A stretch of DNA of 64,000 nt from Antedon mediterranea (lineage: Eukaryota > Animalia > Echinodermata): NCBI RefSeq assembly GCF_964355755.1, contig NC_092678.1, positions 8,944,422-9,008,421 of the forward strand, read 5' to 3'. Each line of letters opens with the position of its first letter. Positions within the stretch are counted from its first letter, which is position 1. The notes beneath the pieces are model-generated. The model worked only from the letters and a program-made list of their open reading frames with translations, ran no database searches and had not been told where the DNA came from. The position numbers and the translations under genes are program-made. Of the stretch, positions 10,198 through 57,129 are shown piece after piece.

Positions 10198-10453
10198 GGC
10201 AGTAAACCTACACTTTTAAAACAATGAAAAGCTTTGAAAAATAAAGGTTTTAATTGAAACTACAGGCTGTCGGGTTATTAAATGGGTGTTGCTTATTCAA
10301 GATACAACGTTCAATGAAAAAACTTGAATTTGACTAATGATTAGAGGTCAACTGATACGGAATTCATTGATTAAATAATGACCTTTAGCGATAGTTAGAT
10401 AAACTGAATCAATAACTTCCGCAATATAGTTTTCTAGAGTAGAAAACCACGCA

Positions 10454-14117: not shown

Positions 14118-17100
14118 TTAATATGCATGTCGCCATGTTGATGGACCATACGTTGCAAGATTTTGACTTTGTTGATTGTTATCATGCATGTCTTGGTCAA
14201 AATAAAGATTCTGCTGGTTTGGTTGACAATTTGAAATATTTTGTGGAATCTCTAAATTGTGTTGGTTACCATACCATGGAGTATTCAGATGGTTGTTGGG
14301 TATATCAAGTTCATTGTTGTTTTCCTGCTTCGTGTTAGGTTCATTGCATCGGATATTTGTTTGATTATGCATTTCACTTATTTGGTGGTTGTCATTGTTT
14401 AAAATCAGTTCAACATTCTGCTGCCGGAGTTCTACGTTCTCAATAACTATTCTTCCATTTTGATATAAGACATGTTTTTCCACATTTCGTTTATTACACA
14501 TTATATGTTGATTGTTGTGAAGTTCAGTATGTGGATGAATCTGTTGGGGGATATTAGACCCATTCGGTGTATTATTCATCATTCCACCACATTGGTTAGC
14601 TGGCACCTCAAATTGTTGATGGTTGTCGATCATCGACATTTCCGGGTTATTGTTTATTAGCATTCTCTGTTGATTGTTGTTAATTATTGCTGTCAGTTCT
14701 TGTTTTAAAAGGATCTCAATTTTCTGTTGAGTTCTTAGTATTCCTGTTTCAAGTTGATCTCTATTTACTGATATAAACTCATTCATCACTGGTATACATT
14801 GTTGGCTGCTGACAGGTTGATCCATAATATGAAAGTTTCTAATACCTCTTTCTATTTGCTGGTTACCATGTATTGACATATTTTGTTGGCTTCTTGGATC
14901 ACCCGTGAAGGTGTGTTGGTTGATAGGTATTGACATACACTGTTGGTTTCTTGGATCTCCACCCATTTTTTGCTGGTTGCCATGCATTGGTATACACTGA
15001 TGGCTTCTTGGATCTCCGGCCATGTGTTGCTGGTTGTAATGCATTGCCACACATGGTTGGTTTCTTAAATCTCCACCCATTTGTTGCTGGTTGCCATGCA
15101 TTGGCATAAACTGTTGGTTTCTTGGATCTCCACCCATTTGTTGCTGGTTGCCATGCATTGGCACAAATGGTTGGTTTCTTGGATCTCCACCCATTTGTTG
15201 CTGGTTGCCATGCATTGGCACACATGGTTGGTTTCTTGGATCTCCACCCATTTGTTGCTGGTTGACATGCATTGGCGCACATGGTTGGTTTCTTGAATCT
15301 CCACCCATTTGTTGCTGGTTGCCATGCATTTGCATACACTGTGGGTTTCTTGGATCTCCACCCATTTGTTGCTGGTTGCCGTGCATTGTCACACATGGTT
15401 GGTTTCTTGGATCAACACCAATGTGTTGCTGGTTGCCATGCATTGGCGCACATGGTTGGTTTCTTAAATCTCCACCCATTTGTTGCTGGTTTCCGTGCAT
15501 TGGCACACATGGTTGATTTCTTGGATCTCCACCCATTTGTTGCTGGTTGACATGCATTGGCGCACATGGTTGGTTTCTTGGATCTCCACCTATTTGTTGC
15601 TGGTTGACATGCATTGGCACACATGGTTGGTTTCTTGGATCTCCACCCATTTGTTGCTGGTTGCCATGCACTGGCACACATGGTTGATTTCTTGGATCTC
15701 CACCCATTTGTTGCTGGTTGACATGCATTGGCGCACATGGTTGGTTTCTTGAATCTCCACCCATTTGTTGCTGGTTGACATGCATTGGCATACACTGTTG
15801 GCGTCTTGGATCTGCACCCCTTTGTTGCTGGTTGGTATGCATTGGCAAACATGGTTGGTTTCTTGGATCTTCACCACTGTTTTGCTGGTTGACATGCATT
15901 GGCGCACATGGTTGGTTTCTTGAATCTCCACCCATTGGTTGCTGGTTGCCATGCATTGGCACACATGGTTGGTTTCTTGGATCTTCACCAATGTGTTGCT
16001 GGTTGCCATGCGTTGGCACACATGGTTGGTTTCTTGGATCTGCACCCATTTGCTGCTGGTTTCCATTCATTGGCATACATTGTTGGCTTCTTAGATCTGC
16101 ACCCCTTTGTTGCTGGTTGCCATGCATTGGCACACGTGGTTGGTTTCTTGGATCTTCACCAATGTGTTGCTGGTTGCCATGCGTTGGCACACATGGTTGG
16201 TTTCTTGGATCTCCACCCATTTGTTGCTGGTTGCCATGCATTGGCAAACATTGTTGGCTTCTGGGATTTCCACCCATTCGTTGTTGGTTGCCATGAATTG
16301 GCACACATGGCTGGTTTCTTGGATCTCCACCAATTTGTTGCTGTTTGCCATGCATTGGCACACATGGTTGGTTTCTTGGATCTCCACCCATTTGTTGCTG
16401 GTTGCCATGCATTGGCATACACTGTTGGCTTCTTGGATCTTTACCCACACTTTGATGGTTACTATGCATGTTATGTTGCATAAGTTGCTGGTTACCATTT
16501 TCCGCAAAGCGCAGTCGATTGCCTGCTCGAATGTGGCTCTTTTGTATGTTATGTCTTTTGTATATAGATCTTAACCTGGAGAACTTCCATGTTTTATATT
16601 TATCTTGTACAGATTTAGAATGACGAGACCTATCAATGGTGTGACGTACTTGGGCACTATTATGATGTCGATACTTATTCTGTCTATCATAATTAATCCT
16701 TGTTGCTCTAATTTTGTGTTCACTACGTCTGTCTTTAGTGTCATGACCTTCTTTATAATTACTCTTTTCTTTCATTGAATCAACAATTGGTTTGCTTTTT
16801 TCCTTGAATCTGTAAGCCTTATCACTTCTCAAATTTGAAACCTTTTGTTTTTTTATCTCGTATCTATTTTTATCATTACGTGGATGGTGTTTTGTTGATG
16901 TCATGTCATCTTTTTTTGTGATTTCATCATATCTTCTAAAATTTCTTGTTTTAAAGTTATTTTCTTTTTTAACTATGACACTTCTTAACACATCTTGTGT
17001 TTTCTTTCTAGCTTTTTCACTAACTTCAACTTTTCTAATTGGAATATCATTAGGTCCCTTTGTAATTTTAATTTGAATATCTTCAATATGTCTACGTCTG

Positions 17101-18372
17101 TGATCACTTTCATTACTTGCTTCTTGTTTTCTGTTGTGCAGTTTCTCACCAGCATCATCAACTTTTCCACTTTCTTCAATATCATGCCTCCTTTTAGTAA
17201 CAAGTTTATTTTTATCCTTACTTTCAATGTTGCTCATTACATCGGTCTCCTTTTTTATTTCTCTTACCATAGTGCGGACATCAATATTCACTTTTCTAGT
17301 CTCAGCTTTGCTGTGCATATTTGTAAGTTTAACGTGAATATCTTCAATATGTCTACGTCTGTGATCACTTTCATTACTTGCTTCTTGTTTTCTGTTGTGC
17401 AGTTTTTTACCAGCATCATCAACTTTTCCACTTTCTTCAATGTCATTCCTCCTTTTAGTAACATGTTTATTTTGATCCTTACTTTCAATGTTGTTCATTA
17501 GCTTAATCTCATTTTTCATTTCTCTTACCATGGCGCTGTCTTCCATATTTACTTTTCTAGTCTCAGCTTTGGTGTGCATGTTTGTAACTTTAACTTGAAT
17601 ATCTTCAATATGTCTCCATCTACATTTTTGATCACCACCTTCACTAGAACTTCCTGTTTCCTTTTTTCCATCAAGCAGTTTTTTCTTTCCTTGTTCGTTT
17701 TGCTTCTTAGCATTGTATTTATCTTCATTTTCACAATAACTTTTGCATGCACCATCATTGCTGTCATTTGGTAAACATGTTTCATTCTTGATGTAAACAT
17801 TTTTAACATCTAATACTTGCTCTTTGTCTCTTTTGATTTCTTTTTTAATTATTTCTTTACAGTCGGTTTTGCATCTGCCATGCATGGTTCGCTTTTGGTC
17901 TTCTTGAAAAATCATTTCAGTGTTATTATTTTCTGTACCTTTGCATACAGTTTTATTACTGTCAGCTGGTAAAGATGGTTCAGTTTTGATTTCTTTTTTC
18001 ATATCAATTTCCTTGCCTACCCTCTTTTTTATAAAATTACACTGTGGACTAGGATTTGTTATCAGATCTATACATTCAGTTTTGCGCCTACCTAATATCT
18101 GTATGATTCGGTCACATTTTTGGTCTTCTTGAACAGCAATGAAACCATCTATTGTTTCAGTATTGCCGTTTTCTGCAACATGGCTTGATTTGTTAAAGAT
18201 TGTGACTTCTACTTGGCATTGTTCTGTTTTAACCAAGTTTTTGTCAATTAAATTTGCAGACTTCAATTGTGTTCTTGATAATTTACCATTTTCACTTTGT
18301 TCCCACTGAGAGTGCTCTGTTTTCAAGTCGGATACACATGCCTTAGTGTTTTTTTCTGCTTCACCATTGTTA
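14118..18372 (-). CDS. TASOR: TASOR-like terminal exon 19 (4.25 kb; charged region, 87-aa duplication, 19-aa DPR repeat array, Q/N-rich end)
   Basis: 1402-aa ORF with no initial Met, extended in frame to acceptor tttttcag| at 18373; stop TAA 14120-14118. Confidence 0.8.
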
Positions 18373-21300: not shown

Positions 21301-24300
21301 ATCAAAATGCGCTCAATCAAAGTTGTATACCTTCAACAAAACTAAGCGTTTGCAACCTTTAAAACATTCTTCTGTAAAAATAAGGTATGTAGTTTTAAAG
21401 AGTTTCTTCATATAATAATAATAATTAATAATCATGCACATATCATTAAATAAAACAATATAAGAACCCTTTTAGTTTGTAAAGCCCAGCCTGTTATATA
21501 TGAACAAAGAAATTATATAATAATTATAATAGTGTGTTAATTGCAGACCGATAATTCGTATTCCTAATAAAATTCCTCCAAAAGTTTGATAAAGCAAGAT
21601 CCAGGGTTGGCACAATCATCACTAACATTTGAATGTGCACAGATCTGTATTTTTTCCATAATTCCAGGCAATGCTGCCTGCATTTAGGCCATAGACATAT
21701 AGATCGAAAATATTTTACTTTTTGAACATAGTGCATTTTTTTATACAAATCTGTATGTACACGTACTTCATACAAAATTGGTGAAAAAAAACTGTATACT
21801 ATCAATAAAATAATTTTTTCATCAAGGATAAAAATGAATTCTTTCATTAACATTGATAAGTTTTTTATCCTCTAGTAGATATACAATTGAGTACAGTATA
21901 CTGTGTGCAAAAGGATTACCAAAATTTAATTCCAAATTATTATGTCATCATCCATTACGAGAGAGTTTTACCTTCACCAAAAACTTATTAAATTGTTTAT
22001 GAAGTTGAACATAATTTGCATTTTTTTAAATGATTTTGAATGCTGTAAATGTAAAATTTACAGAACGTGGTATAATTTAGATATAAATATATTTTAATAC
22101 TTAAAACACTAAAGAAAAGCATTGAGAACCTTTTGTTTTTTCTAAATTGATTATTTAAAATAAACATTTTTGTTGGAACAAGAGCTGTTAAATCTGTTCA
22201 TGCCTATGCCTATTGTTTGCTCCTAGCAAGATGCTTAATATGCCAAATAAATATTATTATTATTATTAAGTTGTTCAAGATTATATAATTAATGTATTGC
22301 ATTGTTGGCAAAAACTTAAAAATATGAAATTGTAAGTATAGCAAGGAAATGAACAGTTTACTTTGAATAGTGGTATTATCATGTGATCTGAGCAAGCAAG
22401 AACAAATCCTCACCTTGTATCTTGGATATTACTTGTGTTTATGCGGCCCTGGACACCGAGACTACTATCTAACCCGAGAATTACAGATGTAACCTTTATT
22501 AAGAAAAATATTTTTAAAAATAAATTATGTACATGAATCATACTACTGTAATTTGTAAAAAGAATATACTGTATATTACTGTTTTCCGTAACCACAAATA
22601 GATGTAGGCACTACCTTAATTTAGTAAAAAACTAAAGTGTATGTTATTTGTCATACGGAAAAATGTTAAAAAGCTTCATTTTTTAAAAGCTTATATTTGT
22701 TAGATCTGCTCACACATGGTATTACATAAACATGCGACATTATCAAAGTTGAGGTACTCAAAAACAACAATTAAAGCCTAACGTTTAAAATCAAAGGTAC
22801 ATCACCAGCGATTTCAATCATGTATTGGACAGCATCAAAATCACTAATGCATCAGCAAGATCTGGATTTGACTGCTTACGTATCCAGAGATAAAAACAAC
22901 TCAACACAATGCTAAACTGTAAACACCAAAAATGTGTATGCCTTATTGATATGAGTTCAGTTCCTTAACATATTGCTTTATTTGAATAGTCATTCCATGC
23001 ATTTTAAACAATGTAATGATGAACTCTAAATCATCATTTTTACACCTGGGTGGAAAGAGGCAAACATAAGTGTCTTGCATATCGATACAAGCATGCGCTG
23101 ATAGTTGGATTCAAACTCACAATCTCACAATCAGTAATCCAACATCCAACACACTGCACCATACGCAGTTAACATAGATATGAAGATGATTTACCTTTTG
23201 AACTGATCTGGCAGGACTTGCAATTGTTTGATCTCCGTTTAAACTTATTGATAATTTACATTGATCATCCATTTGGTGACAACTTCCCAAATTAAGAGAG
23301 GTGGGATCCTTTGGAAAAATACCAATCATTTGTTGTGGTTTTGATCTTGACTGTGGTTTATTAGACCAACCATCAATCTCTTCTTGTTCTGGTGGATGAA
23401 TAGAACAATTTGGTACATCAGCAACAAGGTTCAAGTTACACTTTACATTGTTTACTTCCTTCGATTGAACAGATTCAAGACTATCTAATTGTTTACCACT
23501 TTTTAATATAGATGCAGGTTCCTTTAAAGTAACATCGACCACATTCCGAGTTTCTGATCTTGATTCTTGTTTGGTATCCGAATAACTATCAAGCTTTTCT
23601 TGTTTTGATGGATGTAAAGAAGGAGTCTGAGTAGTTTGTATGTCAGAAACAAGTTTCAAGTTACAATGGACGTTGTTAACTTCTTTTGATCGAACTAACA
23701 TTGGACGATTTGAGATACGACTTTCAATTTGCTTCACATTAGTCTTCAAACTCTTACACGCTGCAGCTCCAATAACAGGAATAGGTGCTCCTTCGGCAAC
23801 AACATTTTTATTACAAGTAATATCATGCACCATTGGTTTTTGCGGTATCGCTTTTTCCTTGCTAATAAATATTGAACTTGATTTTGTCAAATTCAGTTTG
23901 ATGGGCTTAATCTTTGGCAGCTTCTTGGTAGCTACGTTATCTTCATCTTTCACGGTGCAACCTTTTCTCTCTGGTCCATCTTTTAAGTCAACATTCTCAT
24001 GGTCAGATAATGTTTTTGAATCAACTTCATGAAATGTTTTTACAAATGATTTGAGATCTCCTTGTCTATGAGACATAATTTCATCCTGAATATCATTTGA
24101 AATATTTGGTTTAAATTCCACTGCACTTGCTTTAGTAAAAGGAACAGCAGGTACATCATAATTATACAATTCGTACAATTTTTTACATTTTTCTCGGAAT
24201 GAACCAGACTCAAACGTTTTCTTACATCCAATCTTCTCTACTTCTTCAAAAAGTAGCTTATCTTCTATATCCGAGACGGACACTGTATCTGACGTTGTTT

Positions 24301-45300: not shown

Positions 45301-48300
45301 ACAACTATTCAAATAACTTACAACTTGAAAGGAATTATAGGAACTCCTTTTGAAATTAGTTCAACAGTGAAAAGAGGATTCTTCTTATTGGTCAGCTTGC
45401 CTTTCCAAATAGTGTAACTGTCAATCATACCTGCTAAAGACAGAAATCCTTCAATTAAATTCAATCAGTAATTTTTCATGTACATATAAATATATATATT
45501 ATTTGCAAATGCAAATGTTAAAACATGTTAAGATTTATATTAGGAGGAGAGTCTGTTCCTTTTTCTAATAGGGTAAATCATATAACTCATTTGATAAATT
45601 TTGTAAACAATATTTAAGTTCTGCATGGGAGAAACGATCCTTTTTAAAGTAATATTAATTGATTGTATTGTTGCTTGTAAATACTGTAGTTTCTAGTTAA
45701 TTTTGTTTTTGTTTGCTTAGTTTAGTTATTCATGTCTTTTTTATTTTTCTATAATGTTCTGCATTGTTTGCAGGACCGCACCGCATATTGTGTGAGTACC
45801 TGATACAAAGGTGTATATGATCAACAAATAAATAAAATAAATATACAGTATTGTACCCCAAATTTAGAGTTTGAATTTACTATTTTACCACATTGTGTCT
45901 TTTGTATTTTTGTTTCTAACGAAGTGAATATTTAAATAAGAATTTATCAGACTATGACATAATGGTAGAACATGGTAGTTGTCGATTGTTATGTTCAAAA
46001 AGAAAAAAAGAACATTGTTAAAATAATTAAAATAGAAATACAAATGAATACTATTGAATGAATAAAACATTTATTTTATGATTTCTAGGGCGGATTGCTA
46101 TAAACAGTCTTAACTCCATGATTGAAGCCGGCTTTATCAGATAGACGATCTAAGGAAGCCCACCTTAACAAAATAACGCTAATTCTAATAGACTACGAGT
46201 ATCACCATAGTGATCAATTGAAATGCCCTTTTCGTAGTAAACGCAAAGTCCTGATTGTAAGCTTATGTTTCAGACTATATTTCTTTTCAATATAAGGAAA
46301 TACATTATTGTGCCTTTTGTTTTGTATTATACTACTCGATTAGTAATGAAATCAGTCAAGTGGAACGATCTACACGACAAAGTTGTTTTAGTGACCGTAC
46401 GTACAACTCCCTGGTACGTGTAATGCGTGTGTGTTTTGTGCGTAGTTTTGTAGGCCTAGCTGTTAAACATCGGTAATGTACGAACCTCGTACGCTAGCTA
46501 TATGCGTGTAACATACGCTAGCTTCCCCTAATTTGTATCAACGCATTCTGCCAAAAACAGAAAGACAATTAATACAGAAACTATACGTCGGGCTAGGCCG
46601 GTATTTTCGCTCAAAAGTTAAGAGTCTTCCATTTTTTTTGGCCTCACAATCGATTGAAAAGTGGGTGAATTACAAAAGAAAAACAAAAATATCAATCTTT
46701 GCGTAATGCATGTTGGAATTTATAGCGGGCCACTTCAATTATTAGAATCAGCTTATTTTTCACATTTTTTACCGTTTAGAGACAAAAAAAATTAGTTCAA
46801 TAGGACCATAGTATTTATTTTTACATTAAATGTAGTTTGTGACCTGAAATTATACAAAAATGTAGGGAATGGGACATTATACTCGTTCAATCGATTGTTT
46901 TTCTTGACCAATTATACGTATGCAACAAGACTCCTTTGAGTAGGCTTTAATTTTAAAGACTGCTTACAGGTTAGACTGCGGTATAGCAATGGTCTATAAT
47001 ATACTACTGGTTATATCACGAATTACAGCGCTAGGACCTTGTATAGGCCGCTTATAGCAATCCGTTCCTGATACTGTCTAGCATTTTAACATATACCTGA
47101 CTTCTTGGTAAGGGTCTTTTCTTCAATTACTGGTTTTTTCACATTCACAGTTGATTGAGTCTTGGCCACTGCGTTATCTGAGGAAGAACTTGTAGACGGC
47201 AAAGGGTTTGTGACAGTGGATGGCACGATTACTGTCTTTGGCAAGTCTTTTTTAACCTCTTTAAAGTTGAATTTTACAACTGCATATGGATATGCATGTC
47301 TTGGTCTGGCAACCATATCTTCATCCCCATACTCGTACAAATATATCTTTAAAAACAAATTTACATGTTAGGTACATCCCGATATTAGTAAGTCATGATT
47401 TACTAGTCAATACAATGGGAAACACTTAAATTGTTTGAATGGTTAAATACATGCCGTTCAGTATTAGTTACTGAATGGAAAATCTATATTTTGGCGATAT
47501 TAAATGGTCCTAGCTGTTAAACATTGAAAATGTTTAGTAAACATTATGAGAATTGTGTGAGGCATTTGAAAATGAACCTAAAGTGTAACTGTCATACTCA
47601 GCGTCCAAAATCAGAGTGCTGCCTTTTTAAATTACCTAGTTGGGCCACAGACTCCTGCATGCCTGTTGATTGATCATTATCTGAAAATAATATCAAATTC
47701 ATAGATAGTGCCACTATTTACCTGATTGACATCATAATTTGTCTTCTGTTTTGCATTTTTTGAGATATGACAGTCATAGTTTGGGGTTGGTTCTAGAGTA
47801 ACTGTATTTGAGTAGCTTTCCTGAATTGACTTTACCTTTCCCTATTAAAAATTAAAAATGTAATAACAAAATTAATAACAAGATCTCTGAGTGTTATTGT
47901 TTATATTTATTTGGTATTAAAATAGTACCGTATTGTGTCTAATAAATAGTACCGTATTGTGTCTAATAAATAGTACCGTATTGTGTCTAATAAATAGTAC
48001 CGTATTGTGTCTAATAAATAGTACCGTATTGTGTCTAATAAATAGTACCGTATTGTGTCTAATAAATAGTACCGTATTGTGTCTAATAAATAGTACCGTA
48101 TTGTGTCTAATAAATAGTACCGTATTGTGTCTAATAAATAGTACCGTATTGTGTCTAATAAATAGTACCGTATTGTGTCTAATAAATAGTACCGTATTGT
48201 GTCTAATAAATAGTACCGTATTGTGTCTAATAAATAGTACCGTATTGTGTCTAATAAATAGTACCGTATTGTGTCTAATAAATAGTACCGTATTGTGTCT

Positions 48301-51300
48301 AATAAATAGTACCGTATTGTGTCTAATAAATAGTACCGTATTGTGTCTAATAAATAGTACCGTATTGTGTCTAATAAATAGTACCGTATTGTGTCTAATA
48401 AATAGTACCGTATTGTGTCTAATAAATAGTACCGTATTGTGTCTAATAAATAGTACCGTATTGTGTCTAATAAATAGTACCGTATTGTGTCTAATAAATA
48501 GTACCGTATTGTGTCTAATAAATAGTACCGTATTGTGTCTAATAAATAGTACCGTATTGTGTCTAATAAATAGTACCGTATTGTGTCTAATAAATAGTAC
48601 CATATTGTGTCTAATAAATAGTACCGTATTGTGTCTAATAAATAGTACCGTATTGTGTCTAATAAACGCCCCATTTATGTTATAAATGTATTGTCAATTT
48701 TACTATGTAATGTTGTTTTTAAAACTTAAATTAGGAAGTTGCAATGTTTTTAATGTGTTCTTTTTGTATTTGGGGACTTCCCAATGGAAAAAAGTTTTTC
48801 ATTATCCTCAGTTCATTCAAGTTGATATAGTTTTCTTGTACCTTTTCTTTTAAAAAATTGTTTGTCTGTTTGTAAAATTGAATGAACTGAAATAAAATGA
48901 AATGAAAAGGCCCTTTACAAACATCACCAGGCGAGTAAATCATTGTGAAATTAATATTTTCTCTTACTAATTTAAGTTCGCCAGGCTCCAATGCACTGAA
49001 TACACATGCTATTCTATTGAGCACTCACTCACTCACAAAAAGTCACAGAGGAGGCATTTATTAGAAGCAATAAGGTAAGTATTTACTATTTTATTTTTTT
49101 TTAATTTAATGTTGTATTACTTAAACATATTACCTTTATTATTCTAAAAATAACCAAGAAATGTTCTTGAGAATTTGGTACAAACAAAGCAGGTCTTACA
49201 ATATCAGAATGACGGCTAACATACACACCTGAAAACAACAAATGTTAGTAAAGCAATTCCATAGAATGTTTACTTCTAAGGCTGTACATTATATTTAGGT
49301 TAGTCCTCTTAAAAAATACACTCTGAAAAGACTAAACAAACAGATGGGGAAAATAAGCAAGTTTAGTTTAACCCTCCATCCTCTTTAAAATGATTACTAC
49401 CTGTATTGGAATTTAAGTAAATCTCACTTACAAAGTAAAAAAGTAAACAGACGTCAATCGGGAAAGAGATTCTCCGGATATAAAAAAATATATATATACT
49501 GTATATCTACTTGTGCAATAAGATTTATTTTTTAAATGATGACTATATTTTCTTCAATAATTTTTAACTTTAATTTAAAACCATGTGGATACTATTTTCT
49601 GACATTGAAATCATCATACTATTGTACGCTCCTGAAGGTCGCTAACATCATAACTTGATCGCTCTATGCAACAAGCACATGGCGTGAAAATAAAAACAGG
49701 GAATAGACGATGGGGTTATTAGTTATTTGGGCCTAGCTCATTTACATCCAAATTTTTATGAGAGGAAAATCATTTTTAGTGTGTTAGACCAAGTTTTATT
49801 TAGGTGGTAAGTTGATTATTAAGATGTTACTGTTAGATCTAAAATTAAGTGTGTTATTAATTGGCCTCCAATCGGCCTGCATGATTGAATCATGACATTC
49901 CCTGACGTATGAATTTTTTATTCAGACATTTTATATACCAAACACTGCATTTATGGCTGTTTTTAGGCCTACAGCTTTGACCTGTCTACACTGCCTATGG
50001 GATGATAGCTGAAATCTATGTAACCTCAATTTCACAAATATTTTGAATGATGAACAGCAGCAGGCCCATACCAATTGTTAACTGTACTATACTTACCCAT
50101 GGATGGATTTCCTAAGCATTTTATCAACGATGTTTTAATTCTTAAGCCTCTTGCAGCAATTTCTTTTGCCTATAAACAGAAAAAGAAAGAATAATGATGT
50201 AAAGATCAGCTGTTCAACTAACTTTTTGTATGTAGCACTATTTATAAACCAACTAGAACTTACTTAGTAGTACATTTTGGTCGTGTTCGTACGGTGGTTA
50301 AAATAAGCGCTTAATTTCACCCATGCCTCGGGTTATAAATTGAGCGTTCGTTCGTACTTGAAATATTTAACCGCTTAAATGCTTAATCGACGAATCACAA
50401 ACCGGAAATTACGTTTTAAGGTCAGTTGTCTTTACAACCTACAACCCCATTTTCGCACGCTAGTTTCGTGTTGTATATTTTTTACACGCGATCTTTCTTT
50501 ACAATAACAATTATTTGCTACCTTTTACACTGCTTATCCTTGCGACAAACCTTATGCCTCTTAACGCCGATAATCCTGCCGAAATATGCCTTCTCCTGAC
50601 GACCATTATTTTACTCATTGACGAAGAATTTGAGCCCAATGTTACACGACGGAAACACCACCGACCAGCTAGGCCTACTAAGCGGTCTACACCAACAAGG
50701 ACAGCACCAGCTGACGATCGCTCTCGAAGCGTGTAGGAGAAATGACGGGCCTAGGCAGCGGAGCGAACGTTTGTCAAAATTTGACACATTGCCTCTATCG
50801 GAGATTTATTAATCCTCGAAGGCCGAGTATAATTGGATTATCGCTGAAATAACCTGCAAATTTGGTGAACATTTTGCCTCAAATTTTTTGTAGCCTGAGG
50901 CAAAAGTTAATTGGATCACGCGAACGGAAATCGGGAATAAGCTGGTATTTTCAACCCCTACGAACGGGCCCTTTGATTCAGGTTCGCAGTATTTAATCAA
51001 TAACATTTACAGGGTTCGTACACATGTAAGCTAGTAAAATATCAGGACATTTCAAGGACATTTAATGTCAAAAGTTTAGAGTTTCAAGGACATATATAAC
51101 CTCAATATTATTAAGTTCAAGAACAGAATAACAATTTTTAATTCTTAGAATTTAAAATTCCGTAGTTATGAATGTTTGTCAGAAAATTCAAGTAATTAAA
51201 GTCCAAATGAATACGTATTGTCGAATGGCCTAGAAAAAAAAATCGGTAGCTATGTACATATATTTATACGCTATATACTTCATAGCCGACTTTACATAAG

Positions 51301-54300
51301 TACTGTCTCGGTATGGTATCCAAAAATTGGTAGTCAAAATCACTAATAACCAATATGATGATAATGAAGGCACCAGTAATATTAAAGTACCTGCCAAGCC
51401 TACACAGTATTAAACCTACTGTGCGCCGTGGTCTCAATAACTAGACCCCTACAAAAATTGACATTTGAGGCGGATGTACATAATAATATTTACATATTAA
51501 AATAAAGAATATTTAAAGCCTGATAACATGCAACATGCAAAAATTGCTCCACCACCTATTATGGCTGCCGTGCGATCGTGTTTTGACAATGGGTAGGTGT
51601 TTTCCAAAGTTATTTTTAGTGCGTGGATTTCGGCTCGCCTGCTTTTGTACCTCCTTTTCAACTTGCGTTTTCTACTAAAATATTTAATAAACATAGATTA
51701 AAATATATATATATAAATAAACCCTTAAACAAGATCTTTCCAGACATATAATTTTGTCATTCTTATCCAATGTTTGCAAATCGATTTTCTATGCGCGTCT
51801 TTATTTTTAGACAAAAATCGACTAAAATAAAAAAGACAATAACTACTGTACAGACTTGGGGCAAGTGTAGTATAGTGCATGGTTGTTGTCTAAAAAGGTA
51901 ATTGTCCGGGATAGAAATTGTTGAGGCATTCTCTGTAGTAGTAGTAGTAGTAGTAGTAGTAGTGCTGCAATCACTTACTGTAGAAAGTATTGGACAGTAG
52001 TAGAAGCCATAACTATCTTTTAGTTCTTTATCATTCCTTCCTTCTTCTTTCATTTCCCTTTTCTTGTCCAAGAACTAAAACAAAGTGATTCAATAGATGA
52101 GTGTTATCCAACATTACCGACGGACACTTTTCCAAAACATTTGACTTTTATCAATTTATAAAACTATTCTGGTGGGAGGTTTAAATTCTTTGTATGTTTT
52201 TTATGCAAGTATTTAGTTATTTATCTTTTTTTTTTATTACACCTTATTTATAGAGGGTGACCCTAAACAGCGTATGCTGACAATCAAGGGGCCCTCTTGA
52301 TGAGTGACAGTGGCTGTGTATACTAGTACACCGGGGTAACCCCCTACTCGTTTCGAAAGATGTACTAGGTTCTTTAAAGTGCACATGAGCCAGATGTGTA
52401 CACTGGACCTACGGTTTATAGTCCTTATCCGAGAAGACTCATTCTACCACCAGAACCGTGCATACATAATTCTATTGCTAAAGTAAATTTAGTCATATGG
52501 TTGCAAAATACCTCAACTAAAAAAAAAAGTGAAATAATCCAAAAACGAAATTGTTATGGACGGACACTTTTTTGAGTTACGGACGGACACTTTTGCTCCT
52601 TCAAATGACTACAGTAATTGGCTACAAAAAACATGGTAATACCTATTCATTAACAATCATAGTAAAAAGTTTAAAAGTTGTTATATGATATCCTATTAAA
52701 CAGTGTAAAGTATAAAATCTCATTATGATTCTCATTAGCATTGGTAGTTACACTTTTACAGGAAAAATAAACTTTTTTTGTTGGTGCTTAGATAATTATT
52801 TTTGTTGACCCAATTAAAAAATGCCTATAGTGTGTAATATGTCCATCCATAACAAAAATGTTACGGATGGACATACATTGTAAATGGGTCTTTTAATTGG
52901 ATTTTTTATTTAATTGGATTTTTTACTAACCTCTGTCAAAAGCTGTTGGTTATTCACAATGTAAGCTGTGACATAAGCAAATCTGTTCTTTGACATCTGA
53001 TCTCTATAATTCTGCATTAATATTGGGTGGATTTCTTTCAGATACTCTCTTGAATCTAGTTTCACCTCTTGGAGTAGCTCTAAAAGTATATAATTCAACT
53101 TAATTAAAATAAAGGGATTGAAGAAAAAAGTTGAAAAGATAATAATTATATAAGTAAAGATAAAGATAACATAAAATTGCAACATATATTATAAAACCTT
53201 CAAAATCTTGAAGGATCCAATCAGCAACACAGCTCTTCAATACTTTTGCAATGTTAGGGAAATTGGCCTTTTTAAGGATTGGCGGTTAGTTTAGGTAAGG
53301 GGTACATCTACAGTACTGAATCCACACCAAAACCATGCTCATTTTTGTTATCTTTGACAGAGTTGGATAACATGCACTGGATTATTTAACTCAATAGGGA
53401 AATATGAATTTATCACATCAATACACGTTTCGTACTCGCGAGGTCACCGTCAGTTTGACCTTTTAGTGGGTATACAATGGTAAACAAACACAGCGAGAGG
53501 TATGTTAAAGCATAGGAGAACTGAGAGATGATCATCTTAAAAAGCAATCGTCAAAACTAGCCTTTTGATGGAATGGCATGGTAAGGATGTTATTTATTTT
53601 CTAAACTTATGTTTTATATTCACTGTAGAATTATTTGGGCATTTGGTTCGGAATCATCGACTTTATTTATGTATTGTCATTTTTGGTTTGACACATATAT
53701 ATTACGGTGCATTTAATACATGTTAACTGTTGATTTTATTTACAAATGTTGCGTAAATATATTAATTATTATCTTTCATTCTTCTTCATGCTCCTATTGC
53801 ATCTTCCATGTATTATGTGATGTTCTTCGGCGCTTAAACAGACACCCAAGCCTCGTAGGCCTAGTAGACGAAGTACCGCATCAGGCAACGCCACCGGGCA
53901 GGCGGAGAGACACGAGCACATCGTGGACGTACCTTTCCTTGAAAAATTTCCAAGATTTTGCGCCACTCTCCTTCGGAGCCGACGCAAACCACTCAGCAAG
54001 TGTTTGAACATTAAAAACAGGAATATTATTCAGTGATTTTGTGTAGTTAAATTCACGATTTATCCAACATGTACAACATTTATGATGCACCTTGCAACAA
54101 AAGCACTCGACAGTCGCCATTTCGCTATGCTTCAACACGCACTAGGCGAGAGGTGTTCGGTTTGTTTACAAATCTATACCCACTATTTCTGATTGGTCGC
54201 GAGCGAGAAACGTGTCTATAGAAAAGAAAAGCCAACTTAACCATTTTCATCAAGAAAAATCCTAAAGCCATTGTGGGAAATGGAACAAACCAACCCATGA

Positions 54301-57129
54301 TCGCAAAGTCACCCCTGCAGTCACCCCATTACAAAGTCGTTCCTCCGCACCCACCCCATTGCAAGTTTCCACCATTTAAATGTTAAAACAATTAAATTTC
54401 AAACATTATGTGCGATTTGCGCAATGATATTCTAGCACAATTTGAACACAAAAAAAACAGTTTGTGGCATAAGCATAAGGAGAAAGCCCTGCCATGTAGT
54501 CTCAGGTTGCACTATCTCGGCAACGCTCCCATGAGGGGAAGCCCTGCTGTAATTACTCTGCGGTTGTACTACTAACATGCTAGTTTACCAGGGGGAAACC
54601 CCGTAATTATTCCATGGTCGGACTACCAACGTGATAGTTCACCAATAGAAGGGGAAACCCTGCCGTAGTTACTCCAGTTTTTATTTTTTTGGTCACGATA
54701 AAATGATAAAGATGTTAGGATCTAAATTATTTATTTTACCGTGTGGATATTTTTTATTTGGTCGATGAATATTTATAATAAATAATTACATTGTTTTATT
54801 TTACAGGTCTAGGAGAAAGATGTGTGCCTTCAAAAATGACAATTTGTAAATTAAGAATTATAATATTCGGCACACAGTATGTTAACAGTACATATATTAT
54901 TAATTAATGTCTTTACAGACACTCAGGGAAGGTAGACTAAATATGTGTCTTTTATTTTATATGCAACAACATATAAACAATTATTGATAAACATTTATTT
55001 TATTTTACTATTAGTATTAGTATTATTAATGAACATTAATAAGCCTGAATAAAGCAATCCATGATAAAATTGCACCATATTCCAAATCCATGGTGTTAAA
55101 AATGTATTCTATCAATTAATTTCAGTTATATGCATTATCATGCATGTAACCTTATTGATTCTGTCAGAATCTTTATTTATTTATTCTTTCCTTAGCACTA
55201 TTTTGTCCATCAATTATCTTGATATCAGTTTCATCTAGCAGAGTCAATTTTTCAGAGTATATTCCTTATGGCCAGGAATCGATGTGGTTATGTTTTCATG
55301 GTGTGCAATAAAAAATTACATGGTCTACAAATTTAACAAATCATGTTTGTAATCATATCTTCACAAGCAATTTGGTAGGCCTACTCATAAATTTCAGGTC
55401 AGAACGCATGCGTAGCGCATATAACGCATGCATACACGCGCTTAAAATTGTTTTAATTGCCATGCGCAGATTTTTGCACTCTCAATGCGCATCAAACGTT
55501 AATGTGTGTACTCTTTTTGCTCGATCTCTGTTTTACAACCTTTCTTTAGTAATATATGATCATATTTGATTCACTTTTCAACTCCAAATTGCGTTATACG
55601 AGCACGTCAAAAGGTCTATGCACGTGTAAGTTAACAAAATAGTGAAAATATGCTAAATTTGAAAATTAATATACAGTAGATCGTCAGAATGCTCGAGAAC
55701 ATCTATTTTTCATTTCATTTTCTTGAAGTGTATGTATATGTATGATTTATTATGAAATTTTTAATTAATTTCATCAAAAAAATTATGACATTTTCTAAAT
55801 ATACAAACTTAACATTAACTTTCTTCCTTAAAGTTAAAAGTTATATATACAGTAGTTTGACAGTTGCATCATTTTTTGTAATTTTTTACCTCCGCCAAGA
55901 AGGTACAGTATATGTGATCGATCGTGTGTGTTTGTTTGTTTGTCTGTCTGTTTGTTTGTCTGTTTGTTTGGTTGTTAGCAGGATTATTCAAAAAGTAATT
56001 AAAAGATCTTTACCAAAATGAATATACAGATAGTGTGGTCAAGGACCATTCCATTAAATTTAATGTGGAAGAATTTCCATCAATTTCGCTTGTCATTTCA
56101 ACCAATAGTTAATTATAACAACAAAATAAAATTAATGTTTCAATAATATAATAATAACATCACTCGCGGGAGAGAGAGGGGCGACTTGTGCGATTCTTAC
56201 GCATGCGCAAAATAACTCTGTGTATCTAGCAAGATAGGCATGTGGCTATGTGACTTACCTTTTGGTGACCATGACGCACCCATTTTGACGCACTGTGACC
56301 ATGTTTTTTATGATATTTTGGGTGGTAAAGTGACAGACAATGACACACCATTGGTCATTGATTTGACGTACCATCTAGGTTTTTTGACGCATGTCTGCGT
56401 CAATAATTTTGTGTAAATGACGCACCCCTCCCGGAGGTCGTATAGTGGGTCATACAATTGACAAGTGCATAAAGATCAAAAGAATTAAGTTTACCTACTT
56501 CAGTATCAATCGGCCAAAAGCTTTACAACAACTTTACAGCATCTCACTCACTCACAAACAATGTAAATACATAATAATAAAATGTTTATACTAAACTTAC
56601 CCTTGTCATTTTTATGTTTGCGTGGAATAACAAAAGGTTTTTTCAAAGGTGCATAAGGTTGTCGTTTTTTTACATTTTCCAATAGTTTTGTAGTCAATGT
56701 TCTCTTTTTAACTGAAACAACTTCAACATCGCTTCCGGACCCAGTTGCATCAAAGGAAGGCGATTTTCTTGAAAAAGTTGAGTCAGACTCAGGTTCAGAG
56801 GCATTTGTCCTAATTTGGTTGGTCTCCATGTTTAAATTTTGAACGTTAGCATTTTCAATTTCTGTTGATTCACAACACGATCTGGGAGTTTCATCACAAT
56901 TTATAGACCTAGGCAGCAACAATTTAGTCCTAGGCCTATCAATCAAGGAAGTGGCGATAGGCCTATCCCCTGTCTTTCTGTTGCAGCAGGTTTTGCCATC
57001 GACATCTCCCGCGATCAAATCATGTGCAGAACCTCTTTCGAAATTTTCACCACTCTCAATATTCTGTGAATCTTTACTGAGGTCACATTTCAAATGTTTA
57101 CTTACTAGCCTATCAAAAACATTTGCCAT
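14118..57129 (-). CDS. TASOR: TASOR-like (FAM208A/HUSH core) protein: DUF3715 pseudo-PARP + SPOC + long low-complexity tail; 19 exons, ~3,697 aa (gene span)
   Basis: Motifs FVIPRK, DSREY, VNNQQLLTEFLDKKREMKEEGRNDKELKDSYGF, LGNPSMGVYVSRHSD, IFRIIKGKVKSI, LEPTPNYDCHISKNA, YLYEYGDEDMVARPRHAYPYAVVKF match human TASOR DUF3715 as remembered; WKGKLTNK...PFKLPNYLDL matches its SPOC start. All 19 exons join in phase (11,094 nt). Joining of exons 12-19 rests on phase continuity only. Confidence 0.8.
14853..16448 (-). repeat. Coding minisatellite: 28 x 57 bp (MGGDPRNQPCVPMHGNQQQ)
   Basis: 57-bp period (cttggatctcc at 15121 and 15178); 28 units counted in the translation, no indels. Confidence 0.95.
17075..17690 (-). 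repeat. Coding 261-bp (87-aa) tandem duplication, about 2.3 copies
   Basis: gaatatcttcaatatgtc at 17075, 17336, 17597; RRHIEDI repeats. Confidence 0.92.
19786..21079. mobile_element. Non-autonomous TIR element with TAG...CTA termini (Academ-like)
   Basis: tagacaggtccaagccaagaaaaaact...cagtggatttgtcatcccaacactatactttatgaaat is inverted at 21000-21079; internal ~50-bp tandem units at 20160-20300. Confidence 0.7.
20460..20915 (-). mobile_element. 3' fragment of a LINE ORF2 (Rex1/Babar-like), decayed
   Basis: YKYLGMVIDDKLNW...FYKSVMQSVLDYSCLIWFSSL...NKACRII...HPL...SGRRF, with stops and frameshifts. Confidence 0.7.
22414..22493 (-). CDS. TASOR: TASOR-like exon 18
   Basis: VTSVILGLDSSLGVQGRINTSNIQDT; phase 0 to 2, donor AG|gtgag. 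Confidence 0.62.
23025..23168 (-). mobile_element. Old CORE-type (MIR-like) tRNA SINE fragment
   Basis: catttttacacctgggtggaaagaggc...aagtgtcttgc resembles the CORE domain; reverse B-box ggattcaaactc. Confidence 0.55.
23195..24322 (-). CDS. TASOR: TASOR-like exon 17 (1.1 kb)
   Basis: 388-aa ORF, acceptor 24323-24324, donor AAG|gtaaat. Confidence 0.75.
24675..24732 (+). mobile_element. Solo terminus of the Kolobok-like family
   Basis: ttaa|ggatgtattgttccccgaaaacatgaaaaatgaagatttaaataatcagattttg is the reverse complement of the 59190-59247 end. Confidence 0.55.
25135..25600. repeat. ~153-bp tandem repeat x3 inside the Academ-like element
   Basis: caccaaaatgttccttatatacatatttata at about 25201, 25353, 25509. 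Confidence 0.9.
26680..26850 (+). mobile_element. 3' end fragment of an L2/CR1-group LINE ORF2
   Basis: YGHHALSYAAPMIWNSLPNCIKDAQSVAFFKRLLKTYF is the typical L2/CR1 ORF2 C-terminal motif. Confidence 0.75.
27231..27521. repeat. 141-bp tandem duplication
   Basis: gtcaaaggtcaataaccacacttccggtc at 27231 and 27372. Confidence 0.92.
27688..29762. mobile_element. Non-autonomous Mutator/MULE-like element
   Basis: Perfect 9-bp TSD ataaacagt (27679-27687, 29763-29771); G-starting TIRs with subterminal gcgaggca repeats. Confidence 0.82.
28737..29576. repeat. Foldback: ~290-bp diverged inverted arms inside the MULE
   Basis: 28737-29030 is the reverse complement of 29298-29576 (e.g. tttctatggagcgccaaaagagcaa / ttgctcttttggcgttccatagaaa). 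Confidence 0.85.
30362..30455 (-). CDS. TASOR: TASOR-like exon 16
   Basis: NVSIDGDDMSQSLIDGILSTVHRKKMKSKNK; phase 2 to 0 bridges exons 15 and 17. Confidence 0.68.
30729..32278 (+). mobile_element. Non-autonomous Helentron/HINE-type rolling-circle element
   Basis: 5' subTIR agttatccgc with nearby inverted gcagataact; 3' gcggataact, hairpin ctcgtcaaagtgacgag, then ctagtt; T-rich target. Confidence 0.75.
32722..34462 (-). CDS. TASOR: TASOR-like exon 15 (1.7 kb)
   Basis: 579-aa ORF; acceptor 34463-34464, donor AG|gtatga. Confidence 0.78.
34677..36105 (-). CDS. TASOR: TASOR-like exon 14 (1.4-kb low-complexity, Lys-rich)
   Basis: 462-aa ORF extended to acceptor 36106-36107; donor T|gtaagt. Confidence 0.78.
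36590..38180 (+). mobile_element. Two head-to-tail diverged copies of the same Helentron/HINE family
   Basis: 3' ends cggataacc...ctcgtcaaagtaacgag...ctagtt (37020-37063) and gcggataacc...ctcgtccgtagtgacgag (38137-38180); internal colinearity with 30729-32278. Confidence 0.72.
38362..38538. mobile_element. Short palindromic MITE
   Basis: taccttttcacaccaaaa / ttttggtgtgaaaggggta with internal ctccggag palindromes. Confidence 0.65.
38734..38800 (+). pseudogene. Decayed tRNA-derived / SINE head
   Basis: A-box tagcttggtgg and B-box ggttctaatcc at tRNA spacing; no intact cloverleaf. Confidence 0.45.
38896..39073 (-). CDS. TASOR: TASOR-like exon 13 (second coiled coil)
   Basis: EEEQEQ...GRKLRQLQEQLFALHRAREELE...HSLQ; phase 2 to 0. 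Confidence 0.75.
40389..40830 (-). CDS. TASOR: TASOR-like exon 12 (coiled coil, KDPRL, Pro/Ser-rich)
   Basis: Open frame, ag/gtaagt boundaries, phase 1 to 2. Confidence 0.78.
41382..41499 (-). CDS. TASOR: TASOR-like exon 11 (SPOC end)
   Basis: VSVVKLPGTYELFFYSSEKASDALYCLFSSK; in phase. Confidence 0.8.
42116..42744. mobile_element. hAT-like MITE
   Basis: TIRs cagaggtcctaagtt / aacttgggacctctg; flanks ctaatg/ctattg. Confidence 0.6.
42783..42966 (+). mobile_element. Short DINE-1/HINE-like element with GTTT/GTCT microsatellite
   Basis: ttacctccaccaaggagg...gtttgtttg...ggcggaggtatgc...ttctagtt; sibling at 55885. Confidence 0.7.
43093..43700. mobile_element. MITE with ggccattcca-type TIRs and 29-bp terminal tandem repeats
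   Basis: cggccattccaaggcaaaaccacgta / tacgttgttttaccatggaatgacc, followed by repeats of gttgttttgccacagaatatcgcagt. Confidence 0.55.
44152..44255 (-). CDS. TASOR: TASOR-like exon 10 (SPOC)
   Basis: VQLNGRYYLNCICKSSFGDKTKIQNLVSYLQKHRI; in phase. Confidence 0.82.
44500..44600 (-). CDS. TASOR: TASOR-like exon 9 (SPOC)
   Basis: PNYLDLTMKVPIERLKTQLPERLFNASAENLLE. Confidence 0.85.
45322..45433 (-). CDS. TASOR: TASOR-like exon 8 (SPOC start)
   Basis: YTIWKGKLTNKKNPLFTVELISKGVPIIPFKL; NAGNAG acceptor, donor gtaagt. Confidence 0.85.
46086..47070. mobile_element. Non-autonomous TIR element (hAT-like termini)
   Basis: tagggcggattgctataa / ttatagcaatccgttcctg; TSD not recognisable. Confidence 0.55.
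47097..47346 (-). CDS. TASOR: TASOR-like exon 7 (end of DUF3715, linker)
   Basis: IYLYEYGDEDMVARPRHAYPYAVVKFNFK. Confidence 0.9.
47722..47841 (-). CDS. TASOR: TASOR-like exon 6 (DUF3715)
   Basis: GKVKSIQESYSNTVTLEPTPNYDCHISKNAKQKTNYDVNQ. Confidence 0.9.
47920..48666. repeat. 24-bp minisatellite, ~31 near-identical copies (aaatagtaccgtattgtgtctaat)
   Basis: Direct reading; one variant unit near 48601. Confidence 0.97.
48646..49077. mobile_element. Tc1/mariner-type MITE whose left TIR seeds the minisatellite
   Basis: taccgtattgtgtctaataaacgcc / ggcatttattagaagcaataaggta. Confidence 0.65.
49134..49228 (-). CDS. TASOR: TASOR-like exon 5 (DUF3715)
   Basis: VYVSRHSDIVRPALFVPNSQEHFLVIFRIIK. Confidence 0.9.
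50097..50169 (-). CDS. TASOR: TASOR-like exon 4 (DUF3715)
   Basis: AKEIAARGLRIKTSLIKCLGNPSMG. Confidence 0.9.
50278..50972. mobile_element. Harbinger-like non-autonomous element
   Basis: ggtcgtgttcgtacggtggttaaaata / tattttcaacccctacgaacgggccc inverted ends. Confidence 0.5.
51010..51095 (+). mobile_element. Left terminus of a hAT-like element
   Basis: cagggttcgtacac followed by subterminal ttcaaggaca repeats; right end not found. Confidence 0.4.
51934..51963. repeat. (GTA)n microsatellite just inside intron 3
   Basis: Direct reading. Confidence 0.95.
51979..52074 (-). CDS. TASOR: TASOR-like exon 3 (DUF3715)
   Basis: FLDKKREMKEEGRNDKELKDSYGFYYCPILST; donor gtaagt. Confidence 0.9.
52224..52460 (-). 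mobile_element. Second Nin/Deu-domain SINE, 5'-truncated, different 3' tail
   Basis: Core nearly identical to 10577-10706; tail unrelated; A-rich end. Confidence 0.75.
52931..53079 (-). CDS. TASOR: TASOR-like exon 2 (DUF3715)
   Basis: ELLQEVKLDSREYLKEIHPILMQNYRD...AYIVNNQQLLTE; ag/gttagt. Confidence 0.88.
53421..54217 (-). mobile_element. Internally deleted ISL2EU-like DNA transposon with relic of its SWIM/YqaJ-type second ORF
   Basis: Inverted ends acacgtttcgtactcgcga / tcgcgagcgagaaacgtgt plus agtgggtata...gtaaacaaac; AT flank on right; relic KSWKFFKERYVHDV...IIHGRCNRSMKKNE. Confidence 0.5.
55885..56062 (+). mobile_element. DINE-1/HINE-like element, 5' part
   Basis: ttacctccgccaagaagg...(gttt/gtct)n...gttagcaggattattcaaaaagt; colinear with 42783. 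Confidence 0.7.
56601..57129 (-). CDS. TASOR: TASOR-like exon 1 (disordered N-terminus to FVIPRK)
   Basis: ATG 57129, ORF to KPFVIPRKHKNDK, donor G|gtaagt. Confidence 0.85.

What the first reader, a model, noticed from the sequence alone, without database searches (positions are those of the whole stretch)
14118..57129. Giant invertebrate TASOR-like (HUSH core) gene with a replaced C-terminus
Seen: eleven small exons, mostly missed or fragmented by the ORF track, spell a TASOR-type DUF3715 plus SPOC module (~580 aa). This continues in phase through eight more exons to ~3,700 aa, more than twice human TASOR. Established: TASOR scaffolds HUSH (with MPP8 and periphilin) to silence L1 and other intronless invading DNA; DUF3715 is shared with TASOR2 and TEX15, and TASOR-like genes have been reported outside vertebrates but are essentially uncharacterised. 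I see no DomII/PIN-like region. Inference: a lineage-specific transposon-silencing scaffold with new effector modules, in a genome crowded with DNA transposons.
Basis: partly seen in the sequence, partly recalled or inferred. Interest (0 to 1): 0.8.

Follow-up and report, generated by a model that had tools for sequence, protein, structure and literature searches.

The report
Giant feather-star TASOR-like scaffold gene
This feather-star gene encodes a 3,696-residue relative of the human transposon-silencing scaffold TASOR that keeps the two front domains, lacks the usual rear domains as its echinoderm and mollusc relatives do, and carries a short DPR motif, once near the front and 21 more times in a tail repeat, that likely docks it on the transcription-termination factor WDR82.

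Summary
The gene is real: 19 GT-AG exons on the minus strand give a protein identical to RefSeq XP_071961501.1 of the crinoid Antedon mediterranea (3,696 aa); Anneissia has a 3,706-aa orthologue. DUF3715 (Pfam 5.7e-28; PDB 6TL1 2.9e-40) and a SPOC fold (Z 12.6 to PHF3) are confirmed; DomII/PIN is absent. The 'replaced C-terminus' is not special: 0 of 14 echinoderm and mollusc homologues have DomII/PIN, several are as long, while 3 of 3 cnidarian homologues (2.5-4.1 kaa) do, so DomII/PIN is ancestral and was lost. No folded effector module was found in the tail, only crinoid-conserved islands and a 19-aa repeat. The MPP8-binding DomI is not recognisable. New: DPR, a known WDR82-binding motif, follows SPOC in 10 of 15 homologues (shuffles 1.8), is amplified in brittle star, scallop and oyster, and fills 21 of 28 Antedon repeats (none in the Anneissia repeats). 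Best reading: a TASOR-like co-transcriptional scaffold likely tied to WDR82 termination machinery, perhaps without canonical HUSH; function untested. This scan had not noted it on other DNA.

The parts
56601..57129 (-). Exon 1 (aa 1-176): low-complexity N-terminus ending in the conserved F-x-I-P-R/K-K stretch before DUF3715
52931..53079 (-). Exon 2, DUF3715 start (L197 aligns to human L130)
51979..52074 (-). Exon 3, DUF3715 (Y251 at the place of the PARP His; Leu184 in human TASOR)
   Evidence: human numbers counted along the alignment
50097..50169 (-). Exon 4, DUF3715
49134..49228 (-). Exon 5, DUF3715 (Y285 = human Y217)
47722..47841 (-). Exon 6, DUF3715 core; passes the Pfam cut-off alone
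47097..47346 (-). Exon 7: end of DUF3715 with the 14-residue beta8-beta9 loop (aa 358-371, Y360 = human Y305), then linker
45322..45430 (-). Exon 8, SPOC start; isoforms X1/X2 differ by one residue at this acceptor
44500..44600 (-). Exon 9, SPOC
44152..44255 (-). Exon 10, SPOC
41382..41499 (-). Exon 11, SPOC end (domain about aa 443-572)
40389..40830 (-). Exon 12: one 34-residue helix (aa 600-633, 40678-40777) where human TASOR has DomI; DPR motif at aa 651-653 shared with Anneissia; crinoid-conserved motif at aa 716-727
40616..40624 (-). DPR motif (aa 651-653), candidate WDR82-binding site, 76 residues after SPOC
   Evidence: motif meaning from PMC13710762, PMC9911701
38896..39073 (-). Exon 13: short helix-like stretch conserved in Anneissia
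34677..36105 (-). Exon 14: mostly low complexity; crinoid islands at aa 826-875, 1060-1075, 1203-1235; RefSeq isoform X4 lacks aa 1123-1263
32722..34462 (-). Exon 15: S/E/K-rich, 12-24% identity to Anneissia over most of it; its end starts the crinoid island aa 1755-1935
30362..30455 (-). Exon 16, inside the crinoid island
23195..24322 (-). Exon 17: end of the island; motifs at aa 2015-2085; a contig of run X1 covers this exon to within 2 letters of both borders
22414..22493 (-). Exon 18 (80 nt, from the RefSeq model)
   Evidence: length fits the 78 loose letters of X1 contig 7 plus 2 shared letters
14118..18372 (-). Exon 19 (4,255 nt): K/E-rich, then R/K/H-rich, then Q/N-rich repeat and N-rich end; stop at 14118
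14850..16445 (-). 28 tandem 19-aa units (57-bp repeat, 87% matches), 21 with DPR; the homologous Anneissia array keeps the C-x-P-x-H-x-N core but no DPR

Best explanation
This is a crinoid TASOR-family gene whose product keeps the DUF3715 pseudo-PARP and a SPOC domain, lacks DomII/PIN, shows no recognisable DomI, and likely acts as a co-transcriptional silencing scaffold that would dock on RNA polymerase II termination machinery through DPR motifs binding WDR82. Shown: gene structure, DUF3715, SPOC fold, absence of DomII/PIN, DPR enrichment after SPOC across animal homologues. Inferred from human TASOR: the pseudo-PARP is catalytically dead (no His at the first triad position) and, with its intact 14-residue loop, engages nascent RNA or chromatin at slow, long, A-rich transcripts such as transposons; WDR82 brings it to polymerase. 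Inferred, weaker: the 3,100-aa tail is mainly a disordered spacer with short binding motifs, the Q/N repeat adds self-association and possibly extra DPR valency, and silencing may not run through canonical MPP8 binding.
For: Gene equals RefSeq model with 4 isoforms, and an orthologue of the same size exists in a second crinoid. DUF3715; residues matching human L130, Y217, Y295, Y305 and the 14-residue loop that Douse et al. show is needed for silencing are kept. SPOC: AlphaFold pLDDT mostly 80-97, best matches PHF3 SPOC Z 12.6, rmsd 2.7, 120 aligned; FPA SPOC Foldseek E 1.7e-6. DPR within 500 aa after SPOC in 10 of 15 SPOC-bearing proteins, shuffle mean 1.76, max 7 of 1,000; eight control triplets not enriched; rest of the tails not enriched (2 vs 4.4); 36 DPR vs 8.4 expected in 17 proteins with the arrays removed; clusters of 11 in brittle star, 6 in scallop, 5 in octopus, 3 in oyster. 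DPR is a structurally defined WDR82-binding motif, and the paper notes that human TASOR has one (PMC13710762); HUSH binds WDR82 and needs it for chromatin occupancy and L1 silencing (PMC10915761). DomII/PIN is dispensable for reporter silencing by human TASOR.
Against: No binding or function was tested. 5 of 15 proteins (sea urchin, mussel, two snails, Nematostella) have no DPR in that window; the 500-aa window was chosen after seeing the data, three pairs of rows are close relatives, and no set of unrelated disordered nuclear proteins was used as control. The Anneissia array has 0 DPR, and in the Antedon array the Pro of DPR is changed in 6 of 28 units, as often as another Pro (5 of 28), so the 21 extra copies may be an accident of repeat expansion. 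No WPL-like motif was found in either crinoid. One paper reads the human WDR82 link as running through MPP8 (PMC7618375). The DomI test is weak: a profile from only two fish sequences that also misses cnidarians, and DomI is predicted to fold only on MPP8. In human cells DomI is required for silencing, so a DomI-less protein cannot work exactly like HUSH.
Confidence: 0.5

Rival explanations
1. It is the ordinary TASOR orthologue of a canonical invertebrate HUSH: the helix at aa 600-633 and nearby stretches are a diverged DomI that binds MPP8, one of the crinoid islands binds periphilin, and the tail is neutral expansion.
For: Best DUF3715+SPOC tree follows the species tree, echinoderms with fish TASOR (support 80/84). 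A short helix motif after SPOC aligns among echinoderms and weakly with one snail. Schoepp et al. report DUF3715-SPOC-DomI proteins in invertebrates. DomII/PIN is dispensable in reporter assays.
Against: The model shows one long helix, not the four-helix DomI; the fish DomI profile scores nothing in crinoids; the published invertebrate 'SPOC-DomI' calls came from one joint profile, so SPOC alone could have scored; two papers describe HUSH as vertebrate-specific.
Confidence: 0.25
2. It belongs to a separate PIN-less DUF3715-SPOC paralogue lineage of bilaterians, and the genome holds a second, canonical TASOR; this copy would then have its own job, for example a germline role like TEX15's.
For: Lancelet has two DUF3715 paralogues, one with a SPOC domain and one assigned to the TASOR family (PMC10111866). 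A single PIN-less clade is not rejected (p-AU 0.069). PIN-less brittle star, sea urchin, oyster and mussel proteins share a ~60-aa R-x-HPY-plus-helix tail module (cross-hit E 2.9e-5) absent from the PIN-bearing rows, with a trace in Anneissia (E 0.007).
Against: No PIN-bearing echinoderm or mollusc protein appeared among 20 non-self hits, though one search was crowded out and missed even mammalian TASOR. The free tree prefers echinoderms with fish. Antedon itself has lost the HPY module. No TEX15 domain.
Confidence: 0.2
3. The distal ORFs (exons 16-19) belong to another gene and the giant model is an annotation merge.
For: No spliced read or joint was seen directly at any junction; both long models are automatic annotations.
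Against: All junctions are in phase GT-AG; two species give the same collinear giant protein with a conserved island that spans exons 15-17; four RefSeq isoforms differ by splice details; a contig of run X1 stops at both borders of exon 17 with loose ends of fitting length.
Confidence: 0.04

Closest known systems
Human TASOR (FAM208A), HUSH core; PDB 6TL1
   Same: DUF3715 pseudo-PARP with key residues and the 14-residue loop, followed by SPOC; a DPR motif in the linker (reported for human in PMC13710762; seen in both fish TASORs)
   Different: 3,696 vs 1,670 aa; no DomII/PIN; no recognisable DomI or periphilin-binding segment; 28-unit Q/N repeat
Invertebrate 'TASOR-like' proteins (Schoepp et al. 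2023, PMC10578480)
   Same: N-terminal DUF3715 + SPOC; this gene is a member by those two features
   Different: DomI, part of the published definition, could not be shown; the main text does not discuss tail length, DPR motifs or PIN in cnidarians (its supplements could not be read)
Cnidarian TASOR-like proteins (Oculina XP_078369524.1, Nematostella XP_048589759.1, P0018)
   Same: Giant size (2.5-4.1 kaa), DUF3715 + SPOC; DPR after SPOC in 2 of 3
   Different: They end in DomII (PF23314) + PIN (PF24630); the crinoid protein does not
TEX15
   Same: DUF3715; very long, low-complexity body; the one frog TEX15 seen also has a DPR after DUF3715
   Different: No TEX15 domain (PF15326) here; TEX15 hit shows no SPOC
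DPR-motif WDR82 partners (SET1A, ZC3H4, S. pombe Symplekin)
   Same: The DPR tripeptide in a flexible stretch
   Different: Binding is shown for those, only inferred here; 21 copies in a tandem array were not described in the passages read

Membership tests
TASOR / HUSH core | N-terminal DUF3715 (PF12509) | tested here: met
   Pfam 5.7e-28; PDB 6TL1 2.9e-40 over aa 177-384
TASOR / HUSH core | Degenerate PARP site and 14-residue beta8-beta9 loop with Tyr305 | tested here: met
   Tyr251 at the His position, Y285, Y350 and loop 358-371 with Y360, read off the alignment with positions; human numbers counted by me from the anchors. Lack of activity itself is inferred
TASOR / HUSH core | SPOC domain next to DUF3715 | tested here: met
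TASOR / HUSH core | DomI (four helices, binds MPP8) | tested here: inconclusive
   One 34-residue helix instead; two-sequence fish profile scores nothing outside fish; DomI folds on MPP8. Leans absent
TASOR / HUSH core | Periphilin-binding segment (human 1014-1095) | tested here: inconclusive
   PDB sequence search of the whole protein at E up to 1 gave only 6TL1; a short diverged motif could be missed
TASOR / HUSH core | C-terminal DomII (PF23314) and PIN (PF24630) | tested here: not met
   No Pfam hit while cnidarian homologues score 1e-12 to 1e-28; own five-sequence profile best i-E 16
TASOR / HUSH core | Partners MPP8, periphilin, MORC2 in the genome, and complex formation | not testable with these tools
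   No genome held; homologue searches spent on the gene itself
TASOR / HUSH core | Silences transposons through H3K9me3 | not testable with these tools
   Needs experiment
Invertebrate TASOR-like (Schoepp 2023) | DUF3715 followed by SPOC | tested here: met
Invertebrate TASOR-like (Schoepp 2023) | DomI after SPOC | tested here: inconclusive
   the published call used a joint SPOC-DomI profile
TEX15 | TEX15 domain (PF15326) | tested here: not met
   the frog TEX15 control scores 4.4e-67
WDR82 DPR-motif partners | DPR motif kept beyond chance in a flexible region | tested here: met
   region around aa 651 has pLDDT under 50
WDR82 DPR-motif partners | DPR-dependent binding to WDR82 | not tested
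   No WDR82 sequence was in hand for a complex prediction

The most novel reading that the evidence does not exclude
TASOR's oldest conserved partner is WDR82, not MPP8: echinoderms and molluscs run a stripped, MPP8-independent 'proto-HUSH' (pseudo-PARP + SPOC + DPR) that has twice lost the ancestral DomII/PIN, and several lineages have independently multiplied the DPR motif, up to a 21-copy array in this feather star that works as a multivalent WDR82 trap on long intron-poor transcripts.
Probability: 0.22. Interest if true: 0.78.

Novelty: new variant of a known kind. Interest (0 to 1): 0.48.

Why it matters
HUSH is described as vertebrate-specific and how it is recruited to WDR82 is open. 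The comparison shows that the full DUF3715-SPOC...DomII-PIN layout already exists in cnidarians, that echinoderms and molluscs lost the rear part, and that what they tend to keep or amplify after SPOC is the DPR motif. That gives a cheap, direct test in human cells (mutate TASOR's DPR) and points to invertebrate models for a HUSH-like pathway without clear MPP8 binding. The gene itself is an annotated but unnamed member of a family already reported in invertebrates, so its size and lack of PIN are not a surprise.

Tried and rejected
Splice-score choice of exon 18 at 19311-19274: replaced by the RefSeq exon 22493-22414. Pfam on 18 single exons: only exon 6 hit. Word-based homologue search with exon 6 found nothing; exon 2 against PDB gave only chance hits. 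No RNA holder was on record for the locus; three of the four runs laid behave as DNA, and no joint at an exon border was among the 15 rows shown of 166; junctions upstream of exon 16 were not examined with reads. Folding the crinoid island aa 1750-1942 from two sequences gave pLDDT 38, no verdict; it has no Pfam or PDB match. Profiles of four crinoid tail islands found no convincing match in other phyla (best outside hit i-E 0.0016 in Oculina for one basic stretch). The Atlas could be asked only with a chiton homologue, and returned TASOR clusters. 'New folded effector modules' rejected for lack of any hit; 'unusually large' rejected because brittle star (4,558 aa) and coral (4,074 aa) are larger. 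'Selection on DPR inside the array' not supported. A DUF3715-only tree joined octopus with TEX15 on long branches and was not used. No complex prediction was run. Paper searches for an invertebrate HUSH study and for TASOR with DPR showed only the survey by Schoepp et al., one paragraph in Appel et al. and one sentence in PMC13710762; subscription journals are largely missing from that library. Supplements of PMC10578480 (species lists, Fig. 2 data) could not be read and may already show cnidarian DomII/PIN.

Full report
Observation. Six-frame reading of the window shows five large minus-strand ORFs and, between 57.1 and 41.4 kb, a series of small exons. Joined at GT-AG borders, exons 1-15 read open for 1,844 aa. 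A search of 1.84 billion representatives with exon 6 gave 3 hits, one a 3,696-aa protein 100% identical at the same position: RefSeq XP_071961501.1 of the feather star Antedon mediterranea, with four isoforms; the second hit is a 3,706-aa protein of Anneissia japonica; the third is an unrelated chance hit. With RefSeq's 80-nt exon 18, the 19-exon model equals that protein letter for letter and all 18 introns are GT-AG. The isoforms differ by one residue at the exon 8 acceptor and by internal deletions in exons 14 and 17, which suggests transcript support behind the annotation (inference). In run X1, whose RNA status is only the tool's guess, one contig lies on exon 17 to within 2 letters of both borders, at depth 27 against 4-13 for the intronic contigs listed, with 30 and 78 letters left over; 78 plus 2 shared letters is the length of exon 18; another contig stops at the exon 19 acceptor. 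The loose letters were not shown, so this is indirect. No genome is held.

Front half. DUF3715 scores 5.7e-28 in Pfam and 2.9e-40 against human TASOR's crystal structure over aa 177-384. Reading that alignment, the PARP His position holds Tyr251, and residues matching L130, Y217, Y295 and the 14-residue loop with Y305 are kept (meaning of these residues from passages of Douse et al., bioRxiv 2020.03.09.974832). Residues 436-665, folded with 14 homologue stretches, give a confident barrel at about 443-572 and then one 34-residue helix; the barrel matches SPOC domains of PHF3 (Z 12.6, rmsd 2.7, 120 aligned), FPA, SHARP, SPOCD1 and RBM15. Human DomI is a four-helix unit of about 110 residues that binds MPP8 (passages of PMC7618375). 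Nothing like it is seen here, and a profile of the two fish DomI stretches scores only in fish; the test is weak.

Is the tail special? Two searches with aa 165-590 gave 20 non-self hits: 4 echinoderm, 10 mollusc, 3 cnidarian (one unnamed, clustered with coral proteins), 2 fish TASOR, 1 frog TEX15. One search covered only 2,032-6,468 aa and one search was crowded out, so the sample is thin and biased to long proteins. DomII and PIN are present in 3 of 3 cnidarian and 2 of 2 fish proteins and in 0 of 14 echinoderm and mollusc proteins (Pfam run on 18 of the 20, precomputed for the other two; own profile). Lengths reach 4,558 aa in a brittle star and 4,074 aa, with PIN, in a coral. So DomII/PIN is ancestral to animals with TASOR and was lost; giant size is common. 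Schoepp et al. (PMC10578480; abstract, introduction, results and phylogeny methods read; supplements not available) report TASOR-like proteins throughout metazoa and place the full layout in vertebrates; their invertebrate DomI calls rest on a joint SPOC-DomI profile. A tree of DUF3715+SPOC (15 rows; octopus, TEX15 and near-duplicates left out) rooted on cnidarians groups echinoderms with fish at 80/84, implying two losses, but does not reject one PIN-less clade (p-AU 0.069). A shared R-x-HPY-plus-helix tail module in brittle star, sea urchins, oyster and mussels and two lancelet paralogues (passage of PMC10111866) keep the paralogue reading alive.

What the tail holds. Between the two crinoids identity falls to 12-30% over most of the tail, with islands of 40-60% at about aa 716-775, 826-875, 1203-1235, 1755-1935, 2015-2085 and the repeat. 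None has a Pfam or PDB match or a convincing match in other phyla; the largest island did not fold from two sequences (pLDDT 38). Composition is low in hydrophobic residues, as expected of disordered chains (inference). Exon 19 holds 28 units of 19 aa, Q/N/M-rich with a C-x-P-x-H core shared with Anneissia.

DPR. Antedon has 22 DPR tripeptides: one at 651, shared with Anneissia, and 21 in the array. With both arrays removed, 17 proteins hold 36 DPR against 8.4 in local shuffles (max 18 of 1,000), in 13 of 17 proteins. In the 15 SPOC-bearing proteins, 10 have DPR within 500 aa after SPOC (shuffle mean 1.76, max 7), eight control triplets are not enriched, and the rest of the tails is not enriched. 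Brittle star has 11, scallop 6, octopus 5, oyster 3. DPR is required for WDR82 binding by SET1A (passages of PMC9911701) and by fission-yeast Symplekin, with a crystal structure, and that paper remarks that TASOR has a DPR motif that could mediate WDR82 binding (passages of PMC13710762). HUSH co-purifies with WDR82 and needs it for chromatin binding and L1 silencing (passages of PMC10915761). Against: five of 15 lack the motif there, the window was chosen after the fact, rows are related, no outside control set was used, the Anneissia array has no DPR, and DPR is not specially protected inside the Antedon array.

Mechanism. Shown: an intact TASOR-type pseudo-PARP and SPOC, no DomII/PIN, no recognisable DomI, a family-wide DPR after SPOC. 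Inferred: the protein rides with polymerase II through WDR82, uses the pseudo-PARP as human TASOR does on transposon-like nascent transcripts, and recruits partners through short tail motifs; whether MPP8 and H3K9me3 follow is open. Confidence 0.5; canonical HUSH with a diverged DomI 0.25; separate paralogue 0.2; mis-merged gene 0.04.

Novelty. Invertebrate TASOR-like genes are in print and this one is annotated as uncharacterised. I found no paper on their tails, DPR content or cnidarian PIN (searches; listings and the passages named). Other papers: PMC7619638, PMC11532391, PMC12294990 and bioRxiv 2026.09.07.749791 were seen as passages only. Earlier notes of this scan held only two fungal Chp1-like proteins and nothing on this sequence. 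Verdict: a new variant of a known kind, interest 0.48.

Noticed in passing
window 6012-10215, minus strand: Exons of a sodium:neurotransmitter symporter (SLC6) gene downstream on the same strand (Pfam SNF 3.7e-18 and 1.4e-33).
   Followed up: partly
window 47920-48666: 31 copies of a 24-bp unit at 99% identity inside intron 5, giving spurious 255-aa ORFs.
   Followed up: no
window 19817-21041: 1.2-kb element in intron 18 bounded by 42-nt inverted repeats at 98%; inner ORF scraps at 20551-20934 look like a reverse-transcriptase C-terminus by recall, but Pfam gave no hit.
   Followed up: partly
window 27500-32400: Introns 15 and 16 hold very high-copy repeats (summed contig depth thousands of times the single-copy level) and nested inverted repeats at 27687-29763 and 28824-29502, like non-autonomous DNA transposons.
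   Followed up: partly
window 17059-17615: A 261-bp (87-aa) tandem duplication inside exon 19.
   Followed up: no
P0016, P0018, P0022: Cnidarian TASOR-like proteins of 2.5-4.1 kaa carry DomII + PIN and a further conserved ~110-aa stretch after PIN that matches nothing in the other homologues.
   Followed up: partly
P0009, P0010, P0011, P0012, P0013, P0021: Shared C-terminal R-x-HPY motif plus helix (about 60 aa) in PIN-less echinoderm and bivalve proteins; the HPY part resembles a PY-type nuclear import signal (recalled label).
   Followed up: partly
P0024 aa 372; P0023: Frog TEX15 has a DPR after DUF3715 in a context like Antedon's; the octopus DUF3715 protein shows no SPOC but five DPR.
   Followed up: no
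window exons 14, 15, 17, 19: The gene's own long exons are A-rich on the coding strand (37-42% A; exon 19 is 4.3 kb), the kind of exon human HUSH targets; an autoregulatory loop is conceivable but untested.
   Followed up: no
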